Of a stretch of DNA of 64,000 bases, positions 32,152 through 43,556 are shown piece by piece. The position numbers were made by a program, and so were the translations under genes. Under the pieces are notes generated by a model. The model made no database searches. It had not been told where the DNA came from and saw only the letters and a list, made by a program, of their open reading frames with translations. Source of the DNA: Candidatus Margulisiibacteriota bacterium (GTDB lineage: Bacteria; Desulfobacterota; Binatia; HRBIN30); contig DATKMS010000036.1 of the NCBI GenBank assembly GCA_035541735.1, positions 334 through 64,333 of the forward strand, given 5' to 3'. Within the stretch, counting starts at the first letter, position 1. Every line of letters starts with the position of its first letter.

Positions 32152-34533
32152 ATGGCGCGACGGCTAGCAGGGATTACTCTCCGACTGTTTCCGATCTTGC
32201 TCTACGTGGCGTCAACAGCGGGCTGTGGGGGCGACGCCGCCTCGAACGTGTCGGTTCCCAAGGCTCAACCCTCTCCCGGACCTGCCGTCAACGGTACCGT
32301 GTCTTTGCCCAACGGCACTTTGGCAATGCGGGAGCGATCCGTGTTGCGGCGCTTCGCCGCGCTGGTGGTCGAGGAGGCCGAGGCGTTGGTCGCGACCAAC
32401 GTGAAGCCAGTGCCGCGCAACGTCCCCGTGCTCCTGACGTTGCAATACCCCAACGGTTCCTCCCAAACATATGATACGTTTTACACCAACGACCAGGGTG
32501 GCTACCTCCTCAATCTCCCAGCGGGAACCAGTGAGGACACGTGCCGTTTCATCGTGTCCGTCGGCAGTGGCTCCACGCTGACGCGCGCCTTTGTCTTCAG
32601 CACCGTCAAGCCGGTCAACATCGACTACATCAGCGAGACGGCGGTGACGCTCATCTTGGACCAGGTGCATCAAGGCGCCGACCTGTGCGAGTTCTCGGTC
32701 CGAGAAATCGAACAACTCGTCAACATGATCCGTGATCTGCCAGGCATCGTGACCGGCCCGGACATCTTCCAAACCAATCGCAACGCTCTGGTCGCTGCCT
32801 CGAGCAACCCTGACATCCAAGCCTTCGTGCGCGCCGCCGGCGGAGTGGCCACGCCAGTGCCCACGATTACACCGTTGCCGCCGACGGAGACGCCGACCGA
32901 AGGCACGCCGAGTGTCACGCCTACGGTGACCGTCACGAAAACGCGCGTTCCGACCAACACGCCGGTCAACACCGCAACCTTCACGGCGACGCGCACCAAC
33001 ACGCCGATCCCAACGCAAACCCCGACGCGCAGCCTCACGCCGACAGGGACCAAGCCGCCGCCGACCGCGACCGTGACCAACACCGCGACGCCGACGCGGA
33101 CCAATACCGCGACGCCAATCCCGACGACGACGGCGACGCCCACACGGACGAATACCGTGCCGCCGCCTCCGACGTCGACTCAGTCCCCTACGCCGACGGG
33201 CACCCTTGCACCGACGGCCACGTCAACCGCGACGCTGACGCCGACACAGGGCGGGCCGGTGCCGCACATTACCATCGGCGACGCCAGCGGGCCGGCGGGC
33301 AGTCAAGTGGTGGTGCCGATCTCGTTGGAGAAGAATGGGGTGACGGCGGCCAGCATCGCGCCGCTGATCATCGACATCGACACGGGCGTGTTGACGTTCG
33401 TGAGTTGCGCGAAGACGGCGGCGGTGACCAGCGGGCAGACGGTGGCGACCTCGATGCCGATGCCGGGACAGATCACCATCGTGCTGGCGGGGCTGGATCT
33501 GACGGTGCTGCCGGACGGGGAGATCATCGACTGTACGTTCACCATCAACGCGGCCGCAACGGGCAGTACGGCGGTGACCTTCGAGTCAGCGGCGGTGGGC
33601 GACGATCAGTTCAACAGCTTCGACGCGACCGGCACGAGCGGGACGGTGACCGTGGGGGTCGTGAACCCGCCGACGGCGACGCCAACGCCGACGCAGGGCG
33701 GGGCGGTGCCGGACATTACCATCGGCGATGCGAGTGGGCCGGCGGGTAGTCAGGTGGTGGTGCCGATCTCGCTGGAGAAGAATGGGGTGCGGGCGGCCAG
33801 CATCGCGCCGCTGATCATCGACATCGACACGGGCGTGTTGACGTTCGTGAGTTGCGCGAAGACGGCGGCGGTGACCAGCGGGCAGACGGTGGCGACCTCG
33901 ATGCCGACGCCGGGACAGATCACCATCGTGCTGGCGGGGCTGGATCTGACGGTGCTGCCGGACGGGGAGATCATCGACTGTACGTTCACCATCAACGCGG
34001 CCGCGACGGGCAGCACGGCGGTGACCTTCGAGTCGGCGGCCGTGGGTGACGACCAGTTCAACAGCTTCGATGCGAGCGGGACGAGCGGGACGGTGACCGT
34101 GGGCACCGCGAATCCGACGGTGCCGGACGTCACCATCGGCGACGCCAGCGGGCCGGCGGGCAGTCAGGTGGTGGTGCCGATCTCGCTGGAGAAGAATGGG
34201 GTGCGGGCGGCCAGCATCGCGCCGCTGGTGCTCGACATCGACACGGGCGTGTTGACGTTCGTGAGCTGCGCCAAGACGGCGGCGGTGACCAGCGGGCAGA
34301 CGGTGGCGACGTCGATGCCGATGCCGGGACAGATCACCATCGTGCTGGCGGGACTCGATCTGACGGTGCTGCCGGATGGAAACATCATCGACTGCACGTT
34401 CACCATCAACGCGGCCGCGACGGGCAGCACGGCGGTGACCTTCGAGTCGGCAGCGGTGGGTGACGATCAGTTCAACAGCTTCGACGCGAGCGGCACGAGC
34501 GGCACGGTGACGGTGGGGACGGGCGGTGCTTGA
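32152..34533 (+). CDS. lipoprotein scaffoldin-like protein: N-terminal domain, Thr/Pro linker, three tandem cohesin-like modules
   Basis: GAGAGGAG precedes ATG 32152. Lipobox LLYVASTAGC. A ~200-aa N-terminal region includes a prealbumin-like stretch (VPVLLTLQYPNGSSQTYDTFYTNDQGGYLLNLPAG), followed by a ~130-aa TP-rich linker. Three ~140-aa modules have cohesin-like pattern ITIGDASGPAGSQVVVPISLEKNG...IIDIDTGVLTFVSC...GQITIVLAG...PDGEIIDCTFTINAAATGSTAVTFES...GTSGTVTVG. Confidence 0.7.
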   Translation: MARRLAGITLRLFPILLYVASTAGCGGDAASNVSVPKAQPSPGPAVNGTVSLPNGTLAMRERSVLRRFAALVVEEAEALVATNVKPVPRNVPVLLTLQYPNGSSQTYDTFYTNDQGGYLLNLPAGTSEDTCRFIVSVGSGSTLTRAFVFSTVKPVNIDYISETAVTLILDQVHQGADLCEFSVREIEQLVNMIRDLPGIVTGPDIFQTNRNALVAASSNPDIQAFVRAAGGVATPVPTITPLPPTETPTEGTPSVTPTVTVTKTRVPTNTPVNTATFTATRTNTPIPTQTPTRSLTPTGTKPPPTATVTNTATPTRTNTATPIPTTTATPTRTNTVPPPPTSTQSPTPTGTLAPTATSTATLTPTQGGPVPHITIGDASGPAGSQVVVPISLEKNGVTAASIAPLIIDIDTGVLTFVSCAKTAAVTSGQTVATSMPMPGQITIVLAGLDLTVLPDGEIIDCTFTINAAATGSTAVTFESAAVGDDQFNSFDATGTSGTVTVGVVNPPTATPTPTQGGAVPDITIGDASGPAGSQVVVPISLEKNGVRAASIAPLIIDIDTGVLTFVSCAKTAAVTSGQTVATSMPTPGQITIVLAGLDLTVLPDGEIIDCTFTINAAATGSTAVTFESAAVGDDQFNSFDASGTSGTVTVGTANPTVPDVTIGDASGPAGSQVVVPISLEKNGVRAASIAPLVLDIDTGVLTFVSCAKTAAVTSGQTVATSMPMPGQITIVLAGLDLTVLPDGNIIDCTFTINAAATGSTAVTFESAAVGDDQFNSFDASGTSGTVTVGTGGA
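33244..34530 (+). repeat. three near-identical intragenic tandem repeats (cohesin-like modules)
   Basis: The ATCGGCGA landmark recurs at 33274, 33721 and 34135 (periods 447 and 414 nt). The copies differ by only a handful of substitutions and by the length of the inter-module linker. Confidence 0.9.
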
Positions 34534-34660
34534 TCGCAAAACCCCGCGGGCGCGTGTACGAGCGACGAACGCTCTTGACAATTGAGGCGCCCCGGCGCTG
34601 GTATGTGATACCTCAGTATCGAGCCACGTTAGAGTGGCTTGGTACCCGCGGAGTGAGAGC

Positions 34661-35206
34661 ATGAAGGATCGTCTCTATATCGCCATTGGCGCTGCTGCGG
34701 TAATCGTGGTGGCGACGCTCATCTGGTTGAGTAACCGCCACGACGTGCAACATGAAGTGCAGCGAGATGAGGCCGCTACTGCACCGGACAATCCGGAAGC
34801 ACGCGTGTTTGCGTTGCAGGCGGAGTCCACAGCCGACAAGAAGGTGCGGGTGACCATGCGCTCCTTGCCGACGTCGGGGCCAGTGGTGACCATCGTCACG
34901 CAGGTCGATTACGACACTGGCCGCCTTAAGATGAACACCTGTACGATCAGCCCCGACATCGGCGAAGGTACAGCCAGCGCCAAGGTCTTGCACCTGGCAG
35001 AGCCTCAACCGGGATTGGTGCGGGCGGTGGTGGTCGGGAAGCTCGAGGAGTTGCCGGCAGCGGCGAACGTCCTCGCTTGCGACTTTGCGGTGCAGCCCGG
35101 CGCACCAGCGGGGCCGACTGTTGTGCGCGTCCACGGACAGGTTGCCGACACAACATTTGAAGACCGGCCGTTCGCAGTCGAGAAGACGATTGTCATCAAG
35201 AACTAG
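34661..35206 (+). CDS. membrane-anchored single cohesin-like protein
   Basis: Start taken at ATG 34661 (MKDRLYIAIGAAAVIVVATLIWL, an N-terminal TM anchor). The C-terminal ~130 aa have a beta-rich cohesin-like pattern (KVRVTMRSLPTSGPVVTIVTQVDYDTGRLKMNTCTISP...VLACDFAVQPGAPAGPTVVRVHGQVADTTFEDRPFAVEKTIVI). Confidence 0.5.
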   Translation: MKDRLYIAIGAAAVIVVATLIWLSNRHDVQHEVQRDEAATAPDNPEARVFALQAESTADKKVRVTMRSLPTSGPVVTIVTQVDYDTGRLKMNTCTISPDIGEGTASAKVLHLAEPQPGLVRAVVVGKLEELPAAANVLACDFAVQPGAPAGPTVVRVHGQVADTTFEDRPFAVEKTIVIKN

Positions 35207-35228
35207 GCGCCAGGAGCGAGGAGAAGCC

Positions 35229-42566: not shown

Positions 42567-42748
42567 AATAGGGCGGCAGCTAGCGTTGAGCCGAGCACCG
42601 GGCCCCGGGCCGCACTCCAGGCGGAAGGGCGCCACTCCTTCCGGGGCTCAGAAGCGCCGAGCCCACGTAGGGGCGGTATTCACGAGCCAGGGGTGAAGCC
42701 CTGGCTCAGCCATGTTGGAGTGGTGTTGGAGAACACAAACCCAAAAAG

Positions 42749-42779
42749 CGAGGGCCTCGGGTGGATCCCGAGGCCCTCG
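42749..42779. terminator. bidirectional hairpin between convergent genes
   Basis: cgagggcctcggg (42749-42761) pairs with cccgaggccctcg (42767-42779), a 13-bp stem preceded by aaaaag. Confidence 0.6.
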
Positions 42780-42803
42780 TAGAATCAGGGTTCTGGTGTG
42801 CTA

Positions 42804-43556
42804 TCAGGGGCAGCCAGTGCCAACGTCAGGCGAGCAGCACGTGCCCGCGTTGATGTTGCAATGACCGGAATTGCACTCGTCGTCCGTACCCCCTGGACAT
42901 GTTTGCGTCTTACAGAGATGGGGGGTGGTCGAGGTGTCGCAGACGGCGGTGATCAGTTTGCAGTCCGCGTCAACTGCGCACGTGGCGCTCGGATCAACCG
43001 GAACCTTGAAGCCGCAGACGGCGTAAACCTTACCGTCGGTACACTTATTCCCCCCGGCGAGTGGGACGGTATTGCAGGCAGTTGGATCGGACGCCGGCTC
43101 GCGCAACTCAACCAAACCAATCCCCAGGGACTGATTGAAGGTGAGCTGACCGATTGGGCCGAAGAGGCTACCGAGGGAAATTTTGTTCTTGCCGTTCGAG
43201 GGGAAGGCTGCCTTGCCACCGCTGACGTTGAACAGAATGCCTGCAGTGTGCGGGATATCGTTGCCGAGCGCACGCACGCCGAGATCGACCACGTTGTTGT
43301 TGCAGGCCGACCCGCAGTTGATGTCCTTGGTAACCAGTTGGATCGTCGACCCGCCGTCGCCCTTCTTCTTGCTCGGCGCGATCACGATCTTGTCTGCCCC
43401 GTCGGGCTTGGTCAGCGTCGTTGTGGCCAGGTCGTTATGCCCTGTGTCGTTGGTGAACGTACAAGTGTAACCAGCCCCGGCGTGGGCTTGACGCAGCGGC
43501 ATCCCCACCGCCGTCCCAACCACCAGAGCCGCCAAGAAAGTCCTGCGCACCTTCAT
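42804..43556 (-). CDS. secreted cysteine-rich hypothetical protein
   Basis: Start taken at ATG 43556, preceded by GGAGG. Signal peptide MKVRRTFLAALVVGTAVGMPLRQAHA. The C-terminal third carries TCAVDADCKLITAVC and CPGGTDDECNSGHCNINAGTCC, the same C-x-x-DADC-type motif as the dockerin protein. Confidence 0.65.
   Translation of the reverse strand: MKVRRTFLAALVVGTAVGMPLRQAHAGAGYTCTFTNDTGHNDLATTTLTKPDGADKIVIAPSKKKGDGGSTIQLVTKDINCGSACNNNVVDLGVRALGNDIPHTAGILFNVSGGKAAFPSNGKNKISLGSLFGPIGQLTFNQSLGIGLVELREPASDPTACNTVPLAGGNKCTDGKVYAVCGFKVPVDPSATCAVDADCKLITAVCDTSTTPHLCKTQTCPGGTDDECNSGHCNINAGTCCSPDVGTGCP

What the first reader, a model, noticed from the sequence alone, without database searches (positions are those of the whole stretch)
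32152..43556. Non-cellulosomal cohesin-dockerin surface-assembly locus in a high-GC Gram-negative-type genome
Seen in sequence:
- A lipoprotein (lipobox TAGC) carries a long Thr/Pro linker and three ~140-aa modules. Their pattern (I-x-IG-x-x-SG-x-x-GS-x-V-x-VPI-x-L ... YD/ID ... G-x-I-x-I ... DG-x-I ... F-x-I ... G-x-V-x-V) is what I expect of cohesin beta-sandwich modules.
- The next gene encodes a TM-anchored protein with one further cohesin-like module.
- Two downstream genes encode secreted proteins. Right after the signal peptide, each has two 12-residue D-x-N-x-D-x-x-(V/I)-x-x-x-E calcium loops, each followed by a helix (LNKVIAIILN / LNNIIFNILN). That is the type I dockerin architecture.
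- None of the cargo regions shows a glycoside-hydrolase or CBM signature. The first cargo is cysteine-rich with a CGNG..E..E.CDDG myxococcal-type repeat. The second is an unassigned ~300-aa Cys-containing region.
- Three more secreted proteins and a HEAT-repeat lipoprotein are interleaved with these genes.

Established knowledge: cohesin-dockerin pairs assemble cellulosomes, and stray cohesin/dockerin modules are known outside cellulolytic clostridia, mostly without known partners or function.

Inference: this is a self-contained locus with 3+1 receptor modules and 2 ligand-tagged cargos encoded side by side. It may display cysteine-rich, non-enzymatic proteins on the cell surface. I know of no such system described in this gene context.
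Basis: partly seen in the sequence, partly recalled or inferred. Interest (0 to 1): 0.85.

Follow-up and report, generated by a model that had tools for sequence, protein, structure and literature searches.

The report
Lipoprotein-anchored cohesin–dockerin envelope system
An uncultured soil bacterium (probably Binatia) encodes, side by side, a lipid-anchored stalk protein with three cohesin sockets and cysteine-rich secreted proteins with matching dockerin plugs, so the snap-together system known from cellulose-degrading machines appears to be reused here to hang non-enzymatic proteins on the cell envelope.

Summary
g1 (32152-34533) is a lipoprotein with a Thr/Pro linker and three tandem cohesins (Pfam Cohesin E=3.8e-30). 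g2 carries a fourth, divergent, membrane-anchored cohesin (lineage HMM E=1.8e-20). g3 and g6 carry a 74-residue cassette of two calcium loop-helix repeats directly after the signal peptide.

The window's own cassettes fall below the Pfam Dockerin_1 cut-off (14.1 vs 22.9 bits). Against that, 9 of 15 orthologous cassettes hit Dockerin_1. The AlphaFold model is matched best by cellulosomal dockerins (TM up to 0.73) and poorly by calmodulin-type EF-hands.

Comparative evidence is the strongest part:
- In eight related loci, the scaffoldin follows a GldG-type ABC transporter and a DUF4340 gene where upstream sequence is held, and a cassette-tagged Cys-rich protein follows it.
- Cohesin class and dockerin subtype switch together while the cargo stays orthologous.
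- In one relative the same anchor domain and linker are fused directly to the cargo, with neither cohesin nor dockerin.

No glycoside hydrolase or CBM is present. Binding, calcium dependence, surface versus periplasmic location and cargo function are all untested. Non-cellulosomal cohesin-dockerin sets in diderm bacteria have been proposed before, so this is a new variant of a known kind.

The parts
27975..32010 (+). Conserved upstream context: an ABC ATPase (27975-28979), an ABC-2 permease (not scanned in the window; Pfam-annotated in the near-identical contig L001), a GldG-like auxiliary protein (within 29370-31190) and a DUF4340 protein (31489-32010).
   Evidence: Pfam gives ABC_tran 6.1e-34, ABC_transp_aux 3.3e-25 and DUF4340 5.5e-10. 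GldG-like and DUF4340 genes, with ABC transporter genes ahead of them wherever the contig reaches that far, precede the scaffoldin in L001, L007, L008, L009, L011, L016 and L017.
32152..34533 (+). g1, the scaffoldin lipoprotein (793 aa). It has a signal peptide and lipobox to Cys25 (32152-32226), a conserved N-terminal domain (about 32284-32841), a Thr/Pro linker (about 32845-33249) and three class-2 cohesins.
   Evidence: Pfam Cohesin E=3.8e-30. Homologues carry 2-6 cohesins and several are named 'cohesin domain-containing protein [Candidatus Binatia bacterium]'. The N-domain and the AGCGG lipobox are conserved.
33250..33657 (+). Cohesin module 1 of g1 (residues 367-502).
   Evidence: Lineage HMM 174 bits. 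It lies inside the 447-bp tandem repeat.
33697..34104 (+). Cohesin module 2 of g1 (residues 516-651).
   Evidence: Best Pfam Cohesin stretch, residues 522-650. Lineage HMM 172 bits.
34111..34518 (+). Cohesin module 3 of g1 (residues 654-789).
   Evidence: Lineage HMM 170 bits. It lies inside the 414-bp tandem repeat.
34634..35206 (+). g2, a single-pass membrane-anchored protein. The hydrophobic helix covers residues 14-32 and one divergent (class-1) cohesin lies at 34790-35197.
   Evidence: No Pfam hit. Lineage cohesin HMM E=1.8e-20. Orthologues follow the scaffoldin in L007, L010 and L016.
35229..37205 (+). g3, a secreted Cys-rich protein (658 aa). The N-terminal dockerin-type cassette of subtype A lies at 35310-35531, followed by a Pro/Thr linker and a conserved Cys-rich cargo.
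   Evidence: Cargo orthologues follow the scaffoldin in L007-L011 and L016. The cargo is fused to the anchor in P0031.
37516..38916 (+). g4, a secreted 466-aa protein of unknown family. It is a neighbour, and its membership of the system is doubtful.
   Evidence: No Pfam or NCBIfam hit. Only 15 homologue clusters were found, none with a domain. It is syntenic in L008 and L010, but homologues also stand alone in L013 and L014.
39000..39521 (+). g5, a small secreted protein (173 aa) that recurs in the cluster.
   Evidence: tblastn hits in L007, L008, L009 and L010. No family hit.
39781..41007 (+). g6, the second secreted cargo (408 aa from the ATG at 39781). The subtype A cassette lies at 39871-40092, followed by a Pro/Thr linker and a conserved ~280-aa all-beta domain with 11 invariant cysteines.
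   Evidence: In the AlphaFold2 model the cassette has pLDDT ~84 and the cargo ~80, and the cargo has no PDB fold match.
41415..42566 (+). g7, a HEAT-repeat lipoprotein. It is adjacent but not conserved at this position in related loci.
   Evidence: HEAT_2 E=1.1e-66. It is present only in the near-identical contigs L001, L002 and L004 and absent from L007-L012.
42804..43556 (-). g8, a secreted protein with a Cys-rich C-terminus, convergent with g7. It is probably not part of the system.
   Evidence: No family hit. No homologue in the related loci. A strong terminator-like hairpin lies at 42749-42779.

Best explanation
This is a lineage-specific cell-envelope assembly system, probably of Binatia, built on the cohesin-dockerin interaction.

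Components:
- g1 is a lipid-anchored stalk. It has a conserved N-terminal domain, a ~135-residue Thr/Pro linker and three near-identical class-2 cohesins.
- g2 offers a fourth, membrane-anchored cohesin of a different class.
- g3 and g6 are exported by Sec. After signal-peptide cleavage each exposes an N-terminal, cysteine-stapled dockerin made of two calcium loop-helix repeats, followed by a Pro/Thr linker and a disulfide-rich domain with no detectable enzyme family.

Proposed mechanism: the dockerins bind the cohesins non-covalently and in a calcium-dependent way, so up to three cargo molecules hang on each stalk. The upstream GldG-type ABC transporter and DUF4340 genes are inherited together with this module. 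DsbA genes sit beside the scaffoldin in some relatives. Both may serve export or maturation.

Shown here: domain identities, conservation, co-variation and the gene fusion. Inferred: binding, calcium dependence, stoichiometry, location at the cell surface and the role of the cargo. For the cargo I favour adhesion or a matrix or surface-coat function.
For: Cohesins:
- Pfam Cohesin E=3.8e-30 in 3 stretches.
- The class-2 module profile hits only cellulosomal type I cohesins in the PDB, best 6kgc_A at E=2.5e-7.
- g2 matches the lineage cohesin HMM at E=1.8e-20.

Dockerins:
- Two 12-residue calcium loops, each followed by a helix and neither preceded by one, are seen in the sequence and in AlphaFold2 models: helices 43-55 and 83-95 in g6; cassette alone pLDDT 86.3, pTM 0.76.
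- 9 of 15 orthologous cassettes hit Pfam Dockerin_1, best E=4.3e-10.
- The Foldseek top ten are cellulosomal dockerins (4fl4, 2mte, 2ccl_B, 8x39_B, 6kge_B with TMt 0.73 and rmsd 2.6 A, 4uyp_B, 4uyq_B). Calmodulin-type proteins align at TM 0.25-0.33 and rmsd 10-12 A.

Coupling of the two module types:
- In all eight cohesin-bearing related loci (L007-L012, L016, and the near-identical L001), a cassette-tagged gene lies directly after the scaffoldin or one g2-like gene further.
- Cohesin modules fall into three classes. Subtype A cassettes are present in exactly the loci that have class-2 cohesins: the window, L007, L010, L016 and the mixed L008. Loci with only class-3 cohesins (L009, L011, L012) have only subtype B. 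The g3 and g6 cargo domains stay orthologous across both subtypes.
- Rosetta stone: P0031 in L017 sits at the same syntenic position. It joins the scaffoldin N-domain and Pro/Thr linker directly to a g3-type cargo, and has neither cohesin nor dockerin (BLASTP E=4e-14 and 2e-4, collinear).
- The g3 and g6 cassettes differ by 19 synonymous and only 1 non-synonymous nucleotide change in 74 codons, while the flanking signal peptides and linkers diverge. Both cassettes are therefore held to one sequence.
- DsbA-like genes sit directly upstream of the scaffoldin in L011, L016 and L017, which fits disulfide-rich cargo.
Against: - The window's own cassettes do not reach the Pfam Dockerin_1 cut-off (14.1 vs 22.9 bits) and score slightly better against EF-hand models.
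- The cassette profile ranks calmodulins first by sequence in the PDB.
- Foldseek E-values for the 73-residue model are not significant (0.3-3).
- The co-variation rests on eight related loci that are not phylogenetically independent.
- Dockerin-like modules without cohesin partners are common in other bacteria (PMC3035643 as cited in PMC6461901 and PMC10066038).
- No export route across an outer membrane is visible in the window, and g2's membrane helix would place its cohesin in the periplasm of a diderm cell.
- Cargo function is unknown: no Pfam or NCBIfam family and no PDB fold match.
Confidence: 0.72

Rival explanations
1. The same cohesin-dockerin complex forms, but in the periplasm or on the inner face of a membrane rather than on the cell surface. 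g2 would tether cargo to the cytoplasmic membrane. g1 would be a periplasm-facing lipoprotein. The Cys-rich proteins would then be periplasmic components, not displayed ones.
For: g2 has a single N-terminal hydrophobic helix with no cleavage site, so in a diderm cell its cohesin would face the periplasm (sequence). g3 and g6 have only Sec-type signal peptides. No type II, V or IX secretion or surface-lipoprotein export gene lies in the locus. DsbA neighbours act in the periplasm.
Against: The Thr/Pro linker is ~135 residues in g1 and ~270 in P0031. Extended, it would be longer than a typical periplasm is wide, and it resembles the stalks of surface proteins (established knowledge, not tested here). 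The conserved GldG-type ABC transporter belongs to a family linked to surface functions in Bacteroidota, which is an analogy only. The genome-based proposals for other diderm bacteria read such modules as extracellular (PMC6461901, PMC10553843).
Confidence: 0.3
2. The N-terminal cassette is only a calcium-binding, disulfide-stapled stabilising or folding module of the EF-hand superfamily. It does not bind the neighbouring cohesins. The cohesins bind something else, and the adjacency reflects shared regulation of envelope proteins.
For: EF-hand models outscore Dockerin_1 on the window's copies. Loop position 12 is Glu, as in EF-hands. The cassette profile hits calmodulin best by sequence. Orphan dockerin-like modules are widespread (PMC10066038, citing Peer et al. 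2009).
Against: Neither loop is preceded by a helix, so the cassette is an F-hand pair and not a helix-loop-helix pair. By structure it matches dockerins and not EF-hand proteins. This rival does not explain the co-switching of cohesin class and cassette subtype on orthologous cargo. It does not explain the replacement of both modules by a covalent fusion in P0031. It does not explain the near-absence of non-synonymous change between the g3 and g6 cassettes.
Confidence: 0.12
3. The locus is a degradative multi-enzyme complex like a cellulosome, amylosome or the proposed 'planctosome'. The cargo would be unrecognised hydrolases.
For: All characterised multi-cohesin scaffoldins organise enzymes. 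The cargo domains are large, conserved and of unknown fold, so a cryptic enzyme cannot be excluded.
Against: No glycoside hydrolase, CBM, peptidase or other catalytic family hits g3, g4, g5 or g6, or 18 g3-family members. The g6-family invariant residues are mainly Cys and Gly, with some acidic, aromatic and hydroxyl residues, and no recognisable catalytic motif was identified. Only two dockerin-tagged genes occur in 64 kb. The scaffoldin has no CBM.
Confidence: 0.07

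Closest known systems
Cellulosomal type I cohesin-dockerin pairs of clostridia (e.g. C. acetobutylicum CaCohA2-CaDoc0917, PDB 6kgc/6kge; C. cellulolyticum CipC, 1g1k/2vn6; C. thermocellum, 2ccl/4fl4)
   Same: - Tandem, near-identical cohesin modules of ~135-140 residues sit on a non-catalytic scaffoldin.
- The ~70-residue partner module has two duplicated calcium loop-helix segments with internal symmetry.
- These entries are the best sequence matches for the cohesin profile and the best structural matches for the cassette model.
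   Different: - The anchor is a lipobox or a membrane helix, not SLH or sortase.
- There is no CBM and no enzyme cargo.
- The dockerin is at the N-terminus directly after the signal peptide, not at the C-terminus.
- Four to six conserved cysteines frame the cassette.
- Loop position 12 is Glu rather than the usual Asp.
- The host is a high-GC, presumably diderm, uncultured lineage.
'Planctosome' hypothesis in freshwater Planctomycetes (Andrei et al. 2019, PMC6461901)
   Same: It is a genome-based proposal of a non-cellulosomal cohesin-dockerin complex on the envelope of a diderm-type bacterium, with an N-terminal signal peptide followed by a dockerin on an adaptor protein.
   Different: - There the cargo are Zn peptidases, the anchor is a lamin-tail-domain protein, and each protein has a single cohesin.
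- Here there is a multi-cohesin lipoprotein, non-enzymatic Cys-rich cargo, a conserved GldG-type ABC/DUF4340 context, two co-varying specificity classes and a fusion variant.
Cohesin/dockerin 'adhesin' gene sets of syntrophic sulfate-reducing bacteria and ANME archaea (Murali et al. 2023, PMC10553843)
   Same: These are adjacent cohesin- and dockerin-domain proteins in Gram-negative Desulfobacterota. They are not linked to polysaccharide degradation and are interpreted as cell-surface adhesion or recognition factors.
   Different: They come from a different lineage and different proteins, identified by domain keyword only. No scaffoldin architecture, specificity classes or transporter linkage is described in the passages read.
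Non-cellulosomal cohesin- and dockerin-like modules surveyed by Peer et al. 2009 (PMC3035643; known here only through citations and from my own knowledge)
   Same: The general finding is that such modules occur outside cellulolytic organisms, mostly with unknown partners.
   Different: Most of those cases are isolated modules. Here receptor and ligand are encoded together, and the comparative evidence points to cognate pairing.

Membership tests
Cohesin domain (Pfam PF00963) | Sequence matches the family HMM above the curated cut-off. | tested here: met
   g1 scores 105.3 bits against a 24.1-bit cut-off, E=3.8e-30, in 3 stretches. g2 gives no Pfam hit but matches a lineage cohesin HMM at 59 bits, E=1.8e-20.
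Cohesin domain (Pfam PF00963) | Relatives with solved structures are cohesins (nine-stranded jelly-roll beta-sandwich). | tested here: met
   By sequence only: the profile of class-2 modules hits 8 PDB sequences at E<=0.01, six named as cellulosomal scaffoldin or anchoring proteins and two as 'Endoglucanase' (5nrk/5nrm); best 6kgc_A at 2.5e-7. The fold of the window's modules was not modelled.
Cohesin domain (Pfam PF00963) | Binds a dockerin. | not testable with these tools
Only indirect support exists: synteny, co-variation and the fusion.
Dockerin type I (Pfam PF00404) | Sequence matches the family HMM above the curated cut-off. | tested here: not met
   The window cassettes score 14.1 and 13.9 bits against a 22.9-bit cut-off, E about 0.06. 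Orthologous cassettes do match: 9 of 15 at E<=0.01, best 4.3e-10, and 7 of 18 g3-family proteins.
Dockerin type I (Pfam PF00404) | Two tandem ~22-residue segments, each a 12-residue calcium loop followed by a helix, with no preceding helix (F-hand). | tested here: met
   The loops are DCNGDGTVGPGE and DKNGDHTIQPGE, each followed by LNxxIxxILN. The AlphaFold2 models contain only the two post-loop helices, H15-28 and H55-67.
Dockerin type I (Pfam PF00404) | Three-dimensional similarity to solved dockerins. | tested here: met
   All ten best PDB matches are dockerin chains, with TMq 0.45-0.63, TMt up to 0.73 and rmsd 2.6-5 A. EF-hand proteins give TM 0.25-0.33 and rmsd 10-12 A. Caveat: this is a model, not a structure, and the E-values of 0.3-3 are not significant for a 73-residue query.
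Dockerin type I (Pfam PF00404) | Calcium-dependent binding to a cognate cohesin. | not testable with these tools
   Requires ITC or pull-down with and without EDTA.
Cellulosome (or amylosome-type enzyme complex) | Dockerin-bearing carbohydrate-active enzymes. | tested here: not met
   No GH, CBM, CE or PL family hits g3-g6 or the g3 family. The g6 cargo model has no PDB match.
Cellulosome (or amylosome-type enzyme complex) | Scaffoldin with a substrate-binding CBM and an SLH or sortase anchor. | tested here: not met
   g1 has only Cohesin hits. Its anchor is a lipobox, and g2's is a membrane helix.
Myxococcus-type cysteine-rich repeat (TIGR02232 / Pfam DUF4215) | HMM match. | tested here: not met
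   g3 has no NCBIfam or Pfam hit at E<=1. Only a motif-level resemblance exists (CGNG..E..E.CDDG, one copy). A DUF4215 (weak) protein is a neighbour in L009.
GldG-type ABC transporter cluster (context) | ABC ATPase, ABC-2 permease, ABC_transp_aux (GldG-like) and DUF4340 genes. | tested here: met
   Window Pfam hits. The same set lies upstream of the scaffoldin wherever the related contig extends far enough. Its functional link to the cohesin system was not tested.

The most novel reading that the evidence does not exclude
Binatia-type bacteria possess a conserved envelope 'stalk-and-cargo' apparatus. A lipoprotein stalk presents disulfide-rich proteins, either by covalent fusion (P0031) or through one of at least two co-evolving cohesin-dockerin specificity pairs: class 2 with subtype A, and class 3 with subtype B. 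The apparatus would be matured by DsbA and exported or assembled with the help of the GldG-type ABC/DUF4340 system. That would be the first lineage-wide, chromosomally fixed, non-enzymatic use of cohesin-dockerin in a diderm phylum. It would also give a natural orthogonal pair of disulfide-stapled N-terminal dockerins.
Probability: 0.35. Interest if true: 0.75.

Novelty: new variant of a known kind. Interest (0 to 1): 0.62.

Why it matters
Cohesin-dockerin is one of the strongest and most widely engineered protein-protein interactions, yet its role outside polysaccharide degradation is almost entirely unknown.

This locus offers a compact, testable case in an abundant but uncultured soil lineage. 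It provides four receptors, two ligands, an apparent pair of orthogonal specificities in relatives, and a natural 'fusion instead of docking' control.

If binding is confirmed, three things follow:
- The interaction would be shown to act as a general envelope-assembly device in diderm bacteria.
- A function could be proposed for a conserved GldG-type ABC/DUF4340 cluster.
- New N-terminal, disulfide-stabilised dockerins would become available for protein engineering.

It would also give a first handle on what Binatia put on their surface.

Tried and rejected
- phmmer of a single cohesin module against the PDB gave only E=0.07. The profile was needed.
- phmmer of the cassette against the PDB gave spurious repeat-protein hits (WRAP-T) and 2ccl_B at E=1.1.
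- The cassette profile against the PDB was swamped by calmodulins. This shows the shared EF-hand-superfamily loop and does not discriminate.
- Foldseek of the whole g6 model found nothing (best E=0.14, TM<0.2), so the cargo fold stays unassigned.
A broad taxonomic census was therefore not possible.
- g4 was tested as a possible core member. Its homologues carry no domains and two of them stand in unrelated contexts without cohesins, cassettes or g5, so it was rejected as obligatory.
- g7 (HEAT) and g8 were rejected as parts of the system because they are absent from all divergent related loci.
- The promoter scan found no sigma-70-like site (0 found against 1.5 expected), so operon limits are not defined.
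- Literature searches for Binatia with cohesin or dockerin returned no relevant paper.

Full report
WHAT IS THERE

The window has 62-70% G+C throughout. Between 32152 and 43556 the ORF list and the gene calls on a near-identical metagenome contig (L001) give eight genes.

- g1, 32152-34533 (+), 793 aa.
- g2, 34634-35206 (+), 190 aa (called as 181 aa in L001).
- g3, 35229-37205 (+), 658 aa.
- g4, 37516-38916 (+), 466 aa.
- g5, 39000-39521 (+), 173 aa.
- g6, 39781-41007 (+), 408 aa.
- g7, 41415-42566 (+), 383 aa.
- g8, 42804-43556 (-), 250 aa.

Identical proteins are on record in NCBI as VMW56_02770 (g3), VMW56_02775 (g4) and VMW56_02785 (g6). They lie on a 64,511-bp MAG contig labelled 'Candidatus Margulisiibacteriota bacterium'. 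All named close homologues of g1 and g6 are labelled 'Candidatus Binatia bacterium', or in one older record 'Deltaproteobacteria bacterium'. The organism is therefore most likely a member of Binatia.

COHESINS

g1 begins with a lipoprotein signal (…LYVASTAG-C25-GG). The 'AGCGG' motif is invariant in homologues. A conserved domain follows at about residues 45-230, then a ~135-residue Thr/Pro-rich linker, then three modules of ~136 residues.

- Pfam Cohesin matches at E=3.8e-30, 105.3 bits against a gathering score of 24.1, in three stretches.
- The modules are tandem DNA repeats of 447 and 414 bp at 93-94% identity.
- A profile of ten such modules from related scaffoldins finds only eight sequences in the PDB at E<=0.01: six are named as cellulosomal scaffoldin or anchoring proteins and two are entries named 'Endoglucanase' (5nrk/5nrm). 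The best are 6kgc_A at 2.5e-7 and 1g1k_A at 5.2e-6.

g2 has one N-terminal hydrophobic helix (residues 14-32) and no Pfam hit. An HMM of 47 cohesin modules from the scaffoldin family matches its residues 62-178 at E=1.8e-20. A six-frame scan of the whole window finds these four modules and no other.

DOCKERIN-TYPE CASSETTES

g3 and g6 each carry, three to four residues after a predicted A-x-A cleavage site, the sequence below:

C-LGDCNGDGTVGPGELNKVIAIILNC-SSAAAGCGAVPGGC-TAADKNGDHTIQPGELNNIIF(N/D)ILNFPPKGC

The 12-residue loop pattern occurs four times in the six-frame translation of the 64 kb window, and only in these two genes.

On the window's own copies, Pfam Dockerin_1 is below threshold (E=0.057, 14.1 bits against 22.9). 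EF-hand_1 scores a little better (E=4e-4), also below its threshold. Three further tests speak for a dockerin rather than a canonical EF-hand pair.

1. Among 15 cassettes from orthologous proteins, 9 match Dockerin_1 at E<=0.01, best 4.3e-10. So do 7 of 18 members of the g3 family.
2. AlphaFold2 models show only loop-helix, loop-helix, with no helix before either loop. Whole g6 with 22 sequences gives pLDDT ~84 in the cassette. The cassette alone with 15 sequences gives pLDDT 86.3 and pTM 0.76.
3. Foldseek of the cassette model against the PDB returns cellulosomal dockerins in all of the first ten places: 4fl4, 2mte, 2ccl_B, 8x39_B, 6kge_B (TMq 0.63, TMt 0.73, rmsd 2.6 A over 68 columns), 4uyp_B and 4uyq_B. 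Calmodulin-type proteins align at TM 0.25-0.33 and rmsd 10-12 A.

The Foldseek E-values (0.3-3) are not significant for so short a query. This is a ranking argument made on a model.

By sequence alone, the cassette profile hits calmodulins first. That reflects the shared calcium loop; dockerins and EF-hands share that loop and, from my knowledge of Pfam, one clan.

The cassette also has features unusual for cellulosomal dockerins. It sits at the N-terminus. Six conserved cysteines frame subtype A and four frame subtype B. Loop position 12 is Glu.

An exhaustive HMMER search of 1.84 billion representatives finds only 70 proteins with this cassette subtype at E<=1e-3, mostly directly after a signal peptide.

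SELECTION ON THE CASSETTE

The g3 and g6 cassettes are 93% identical in DNA, while the signal peptides and linkers on either side diverge. Within the 74 codons there are 19 synonymous and 1 non-synonymous nucleotide differences. The two paralogous tags have therefore had time to diverge but are held to one protein sequence. That is what one expects if both must fit the same, near-identical, cohesins.

COMPARATIVE EVIDENCE

Homologues of g1 form a family of lipoproteins with 2-6 cohesins. Loci were recovered for seven divergent members: L007 (P0003), L008 (P0011), L009 (P0016), L010 (P0002), L011 (P0013), L012 (P0021) and L016 (P0005). The near-identical L001 was recovered as well.

In every one, the gene directly after the scaffoldin, or after an intervening g2 homologue, begins with a twin-loop cassette. 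Its cargo is a g3 homologue in L007, L008, L009, L010, L011 and L016.

Upstream, a GldG-like ABC_transp_aux protein and a DUF4340 protein precede the scaffoldin in the window and in L001, L007, L008, L009, L011, L016 and L017, with ABC ATPase and ABC-2 permease genes ahead of them where the contig reaches that far. This holds even where the genes further upstream differ. A DsbA-like gene lies directly before the scaffoldin in L011, L016 and L017.

Clustering of 29 cohesin modules gives three classes:
- class 2, ~135 residues, the g1 type;
- class 3, ~151 residues;
- class 1, the membrane-anchored g2 type.

The cassettes also fall into two subtypes:
- subtype A has a long cysteine-containing linker and helices of the type GELTxIIxxI;
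- subtype B has a short linker and helices of the type (I/L)NEVVxxVN.

Subtype A is found in exactly the loci that contain class-2 cohesins: the window, L007, L010, L016 and L008. The L008 scaffoldin mixes one class-2 and two class-3 modules, and L008 has both subtypes. The three loci with only class-3 cohesins (L009, L011, L012) have only subtype B. g2-type cohesins occur only in class-2/subtype-A loci.

The cargo domains of both the g3 and g6 families stay orthologous while their cassette switches subtype. The loci are few and phylogenetically related, so this is suggestive rather than statistical. It is nevertheless the pattern expected of co-evolving receptor-ligand pairs.

A ROSETTA-STONE FUSION

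In L017, at the same position after the ABC, GldG-like, DUF4340 and DsbA genes, the 1196-residue lipoprotein P0031 has three parts. It carries the scaffoldin N-terminal domain (40% identical to g1 residues 1-314). It has a ~270-residue Pro/Thr linker. It then runs directly into a g3-type cysteine-rich domain (BLASTP to g3: E=4e-14 for residues 120-278 and 2e-4 for residues 538-650, collinear).

No cohesin module and no cassette are detectable in that locus. A covalent link thus replaces the proposed non-covalent one. This independently ties the g1 anchor to the g3 cargo.

CARGO AND NEIGHBOURS

- g3, g4, g5, g6 and g8 have no Pfam or NCBIfam family at E<=1 apart from the weak EF-hand hits.
- The 'myxococcal' CGNG…CDDG motif is a single copy without HMM support.
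- The g6 family has a conserved ~280-residue C-terminal domain with 11 invariant cysteines. It is predicted all-beta at pLDDT ~80 and has no PDB fold match.
- The g3 family shares several conserved cysteine motifs, such as ACACVR and KPCAFVHGPGN.
- g4 has only 15 homologue clusters, all without domains. Two of them stand in unrelated contexts, so g4 is not an obligatory partner.
- g5 recurs in four related loci.
- g7 (HEAT repeats) and g8 are absent from all divergent loci.

MECHANISM AND ITS LIMITS

Shown: the module identities, the architecture, the conservation, the co-variation and the fusion.

Inferred:
- Sec-exported g3 and g6 dock by their N-terminal dockerins onto the three class-2 cohesins of the lipid-anchored stalk g1, in a calcium-dependent way.
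- g2 provides a second, membrane-proximal docking site of different specificity or serves an assembly role.
- Disulfide formation by DsbA stabilises both cassette and cargo.
- The ABC/GldG-like/DUF4340 genes contribute to export or assembly.

The two cassette repeats share 14 of 23 positions, including the whole PGELN…I..ILN helix face. A dual binding mode as in type I dockerins is therefore possible but untested.

Location is the weakest step. In a diderm cell, g2's cohesin would face the periplasm, and nothing in the window shows how g1, g3 or g6 would cross an outer membrane. The long Pro/Thr stalk is what argues for the surface.

RELATION TO WHAT IS KNOWN

By homology these are members of the cohesin family, and by family-level and fold-level evidence members of the dockerin family. 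The system is not a cellulosome, because it has no enzyme, no CBM and no SLH or sortase anchor.

Non-cellulosomal cohesin/dockerin modules have been catalogued (Peer et al. 2009, cited). Genome-based proposals exist for diderm bacteria:
- the peptidase-bearing 'planctosome' of Planctomycetes (PMC6461901);
- cohesin/dockerin 'adhesins' of syntrophic sulfate reducers (PMC10553843).

No paper linking Binatia with cohesin or dockerin was found. I therefore class this as a new variant of a known kind. Its distinguishing features are the lipoprotein multi-cohesin stalk, the N-terminal cysteine-stapled dockerins on non-enzymatic cysteine-rich cargo, the two co-varying specificity classes, the fusion alternative and the fixed linkage to a GldG-type ABC cluster.

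VERDICT

- Confidence that this is a functional cohesin-dockerin assembly system: about 0.7.
- Interest: 0.62.

Noticed in passing
window 9218-18067 (+): A 2949-aa ORF carries two GH94 supersandwich stretches, a GH94 catalytic domain and a glucoamylase-like domain (E down to 7.8e-166). It looks like a cyclic beta-1,2-glucan synthase or a giant glucan phosphorylase. It is unrelated to the cohesin locus.
   Followed up: partly
L017 10001-13591 (protein P0031): A lipoprotein has the scaffoldin N-domain and a ~270-aa Pro/Thr linker fused directly to a g3-type Cys-rich domain, with no cohesin and no dockerin. It sits in the same syntenic position as g1. This is a natural 'fusion instead of docking' variant.
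   Followed up: yes
L011 8910-9884; L016 2291-3232; L017 8969-9892; L012 20889-22034: DsbA/thioredoxin-like genes lie directly upstream of the scaffoldin in three related loci. A VKOR-DsbA fusion lies near a fourth. The window has no such gene between DUF4340 and g1.
   Followed up: partly
L001 3567-5534, compared with window 32152-34533: The near-identical metagenome contig encodes a 655-aa scaffoldin with two cohesins instead of three (99% identity over the shared part). This is either real copy-number variation of the 93-94% identical tandem repeat or assembly collapse.
   Followed up: no
NCBI names of P0097, P0135 and P0213 (identical to window g6, g3 and g4): The source MAG contig (64,511 bp, locus tags VMW56_027xx) is labelled 'Candidatus Margulisiibacteriota bacterium'. 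Every named close homologue of g1 and g6 is labelled Candidatus Binatia, and the G+C content is about 65%. The record's taxonomic label is probably wrong.
   Followed up: partly
P0152 (1459 aa) and P0168 (2321 aa): Large proteins contain 13 and 11 separate matches to the cassette. They could be multi-dockerin or multi-calcium-loop proteins. A giant Omnitrophota ORF with nine dockerin domains is mentioned in PMC10066038.
   Followed up: no
L010 9485-10621; L007 19022-19393: FG-GAP repeat proteins lie just downstream of the g5 homologue in two related loci. The L010 one also has faint Dockerin_1/EF-hand hits. They may be further cargo.
   Followed up: no
L013 and L014: g4 homologues (42% identity) stand alone in unrelated contexts, without cohesins, cassettes or g5. 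In L013 the g4 homologue follows a CHASE3/GAF/PAS histidine kinase and a response regulator.
   Followed up: yes
window 42749-42779 (-) and 43677-43715: A 13-bp-stem, GC-rich hairpin with a T-run lies between the convergent genes g7 and g8 and is a likely bidirectional terminator. A short 14-bp tandem repeat (2.8 copies) lies upstream of g8.
   Followed up: no
window 25740-26954 and 27046-27876; L007 and L008 upstream regions: Agmatine deiminase-type (PAD_porph), CN_hydrolase and DUF3108-like genes precede the ABC cluster in the window, L007 and L008. They are replaced by an MMPL transporter region in L009, L011 and L017. This shows that the conserved unit starts at the ABC transporter.
   Followed up: partly
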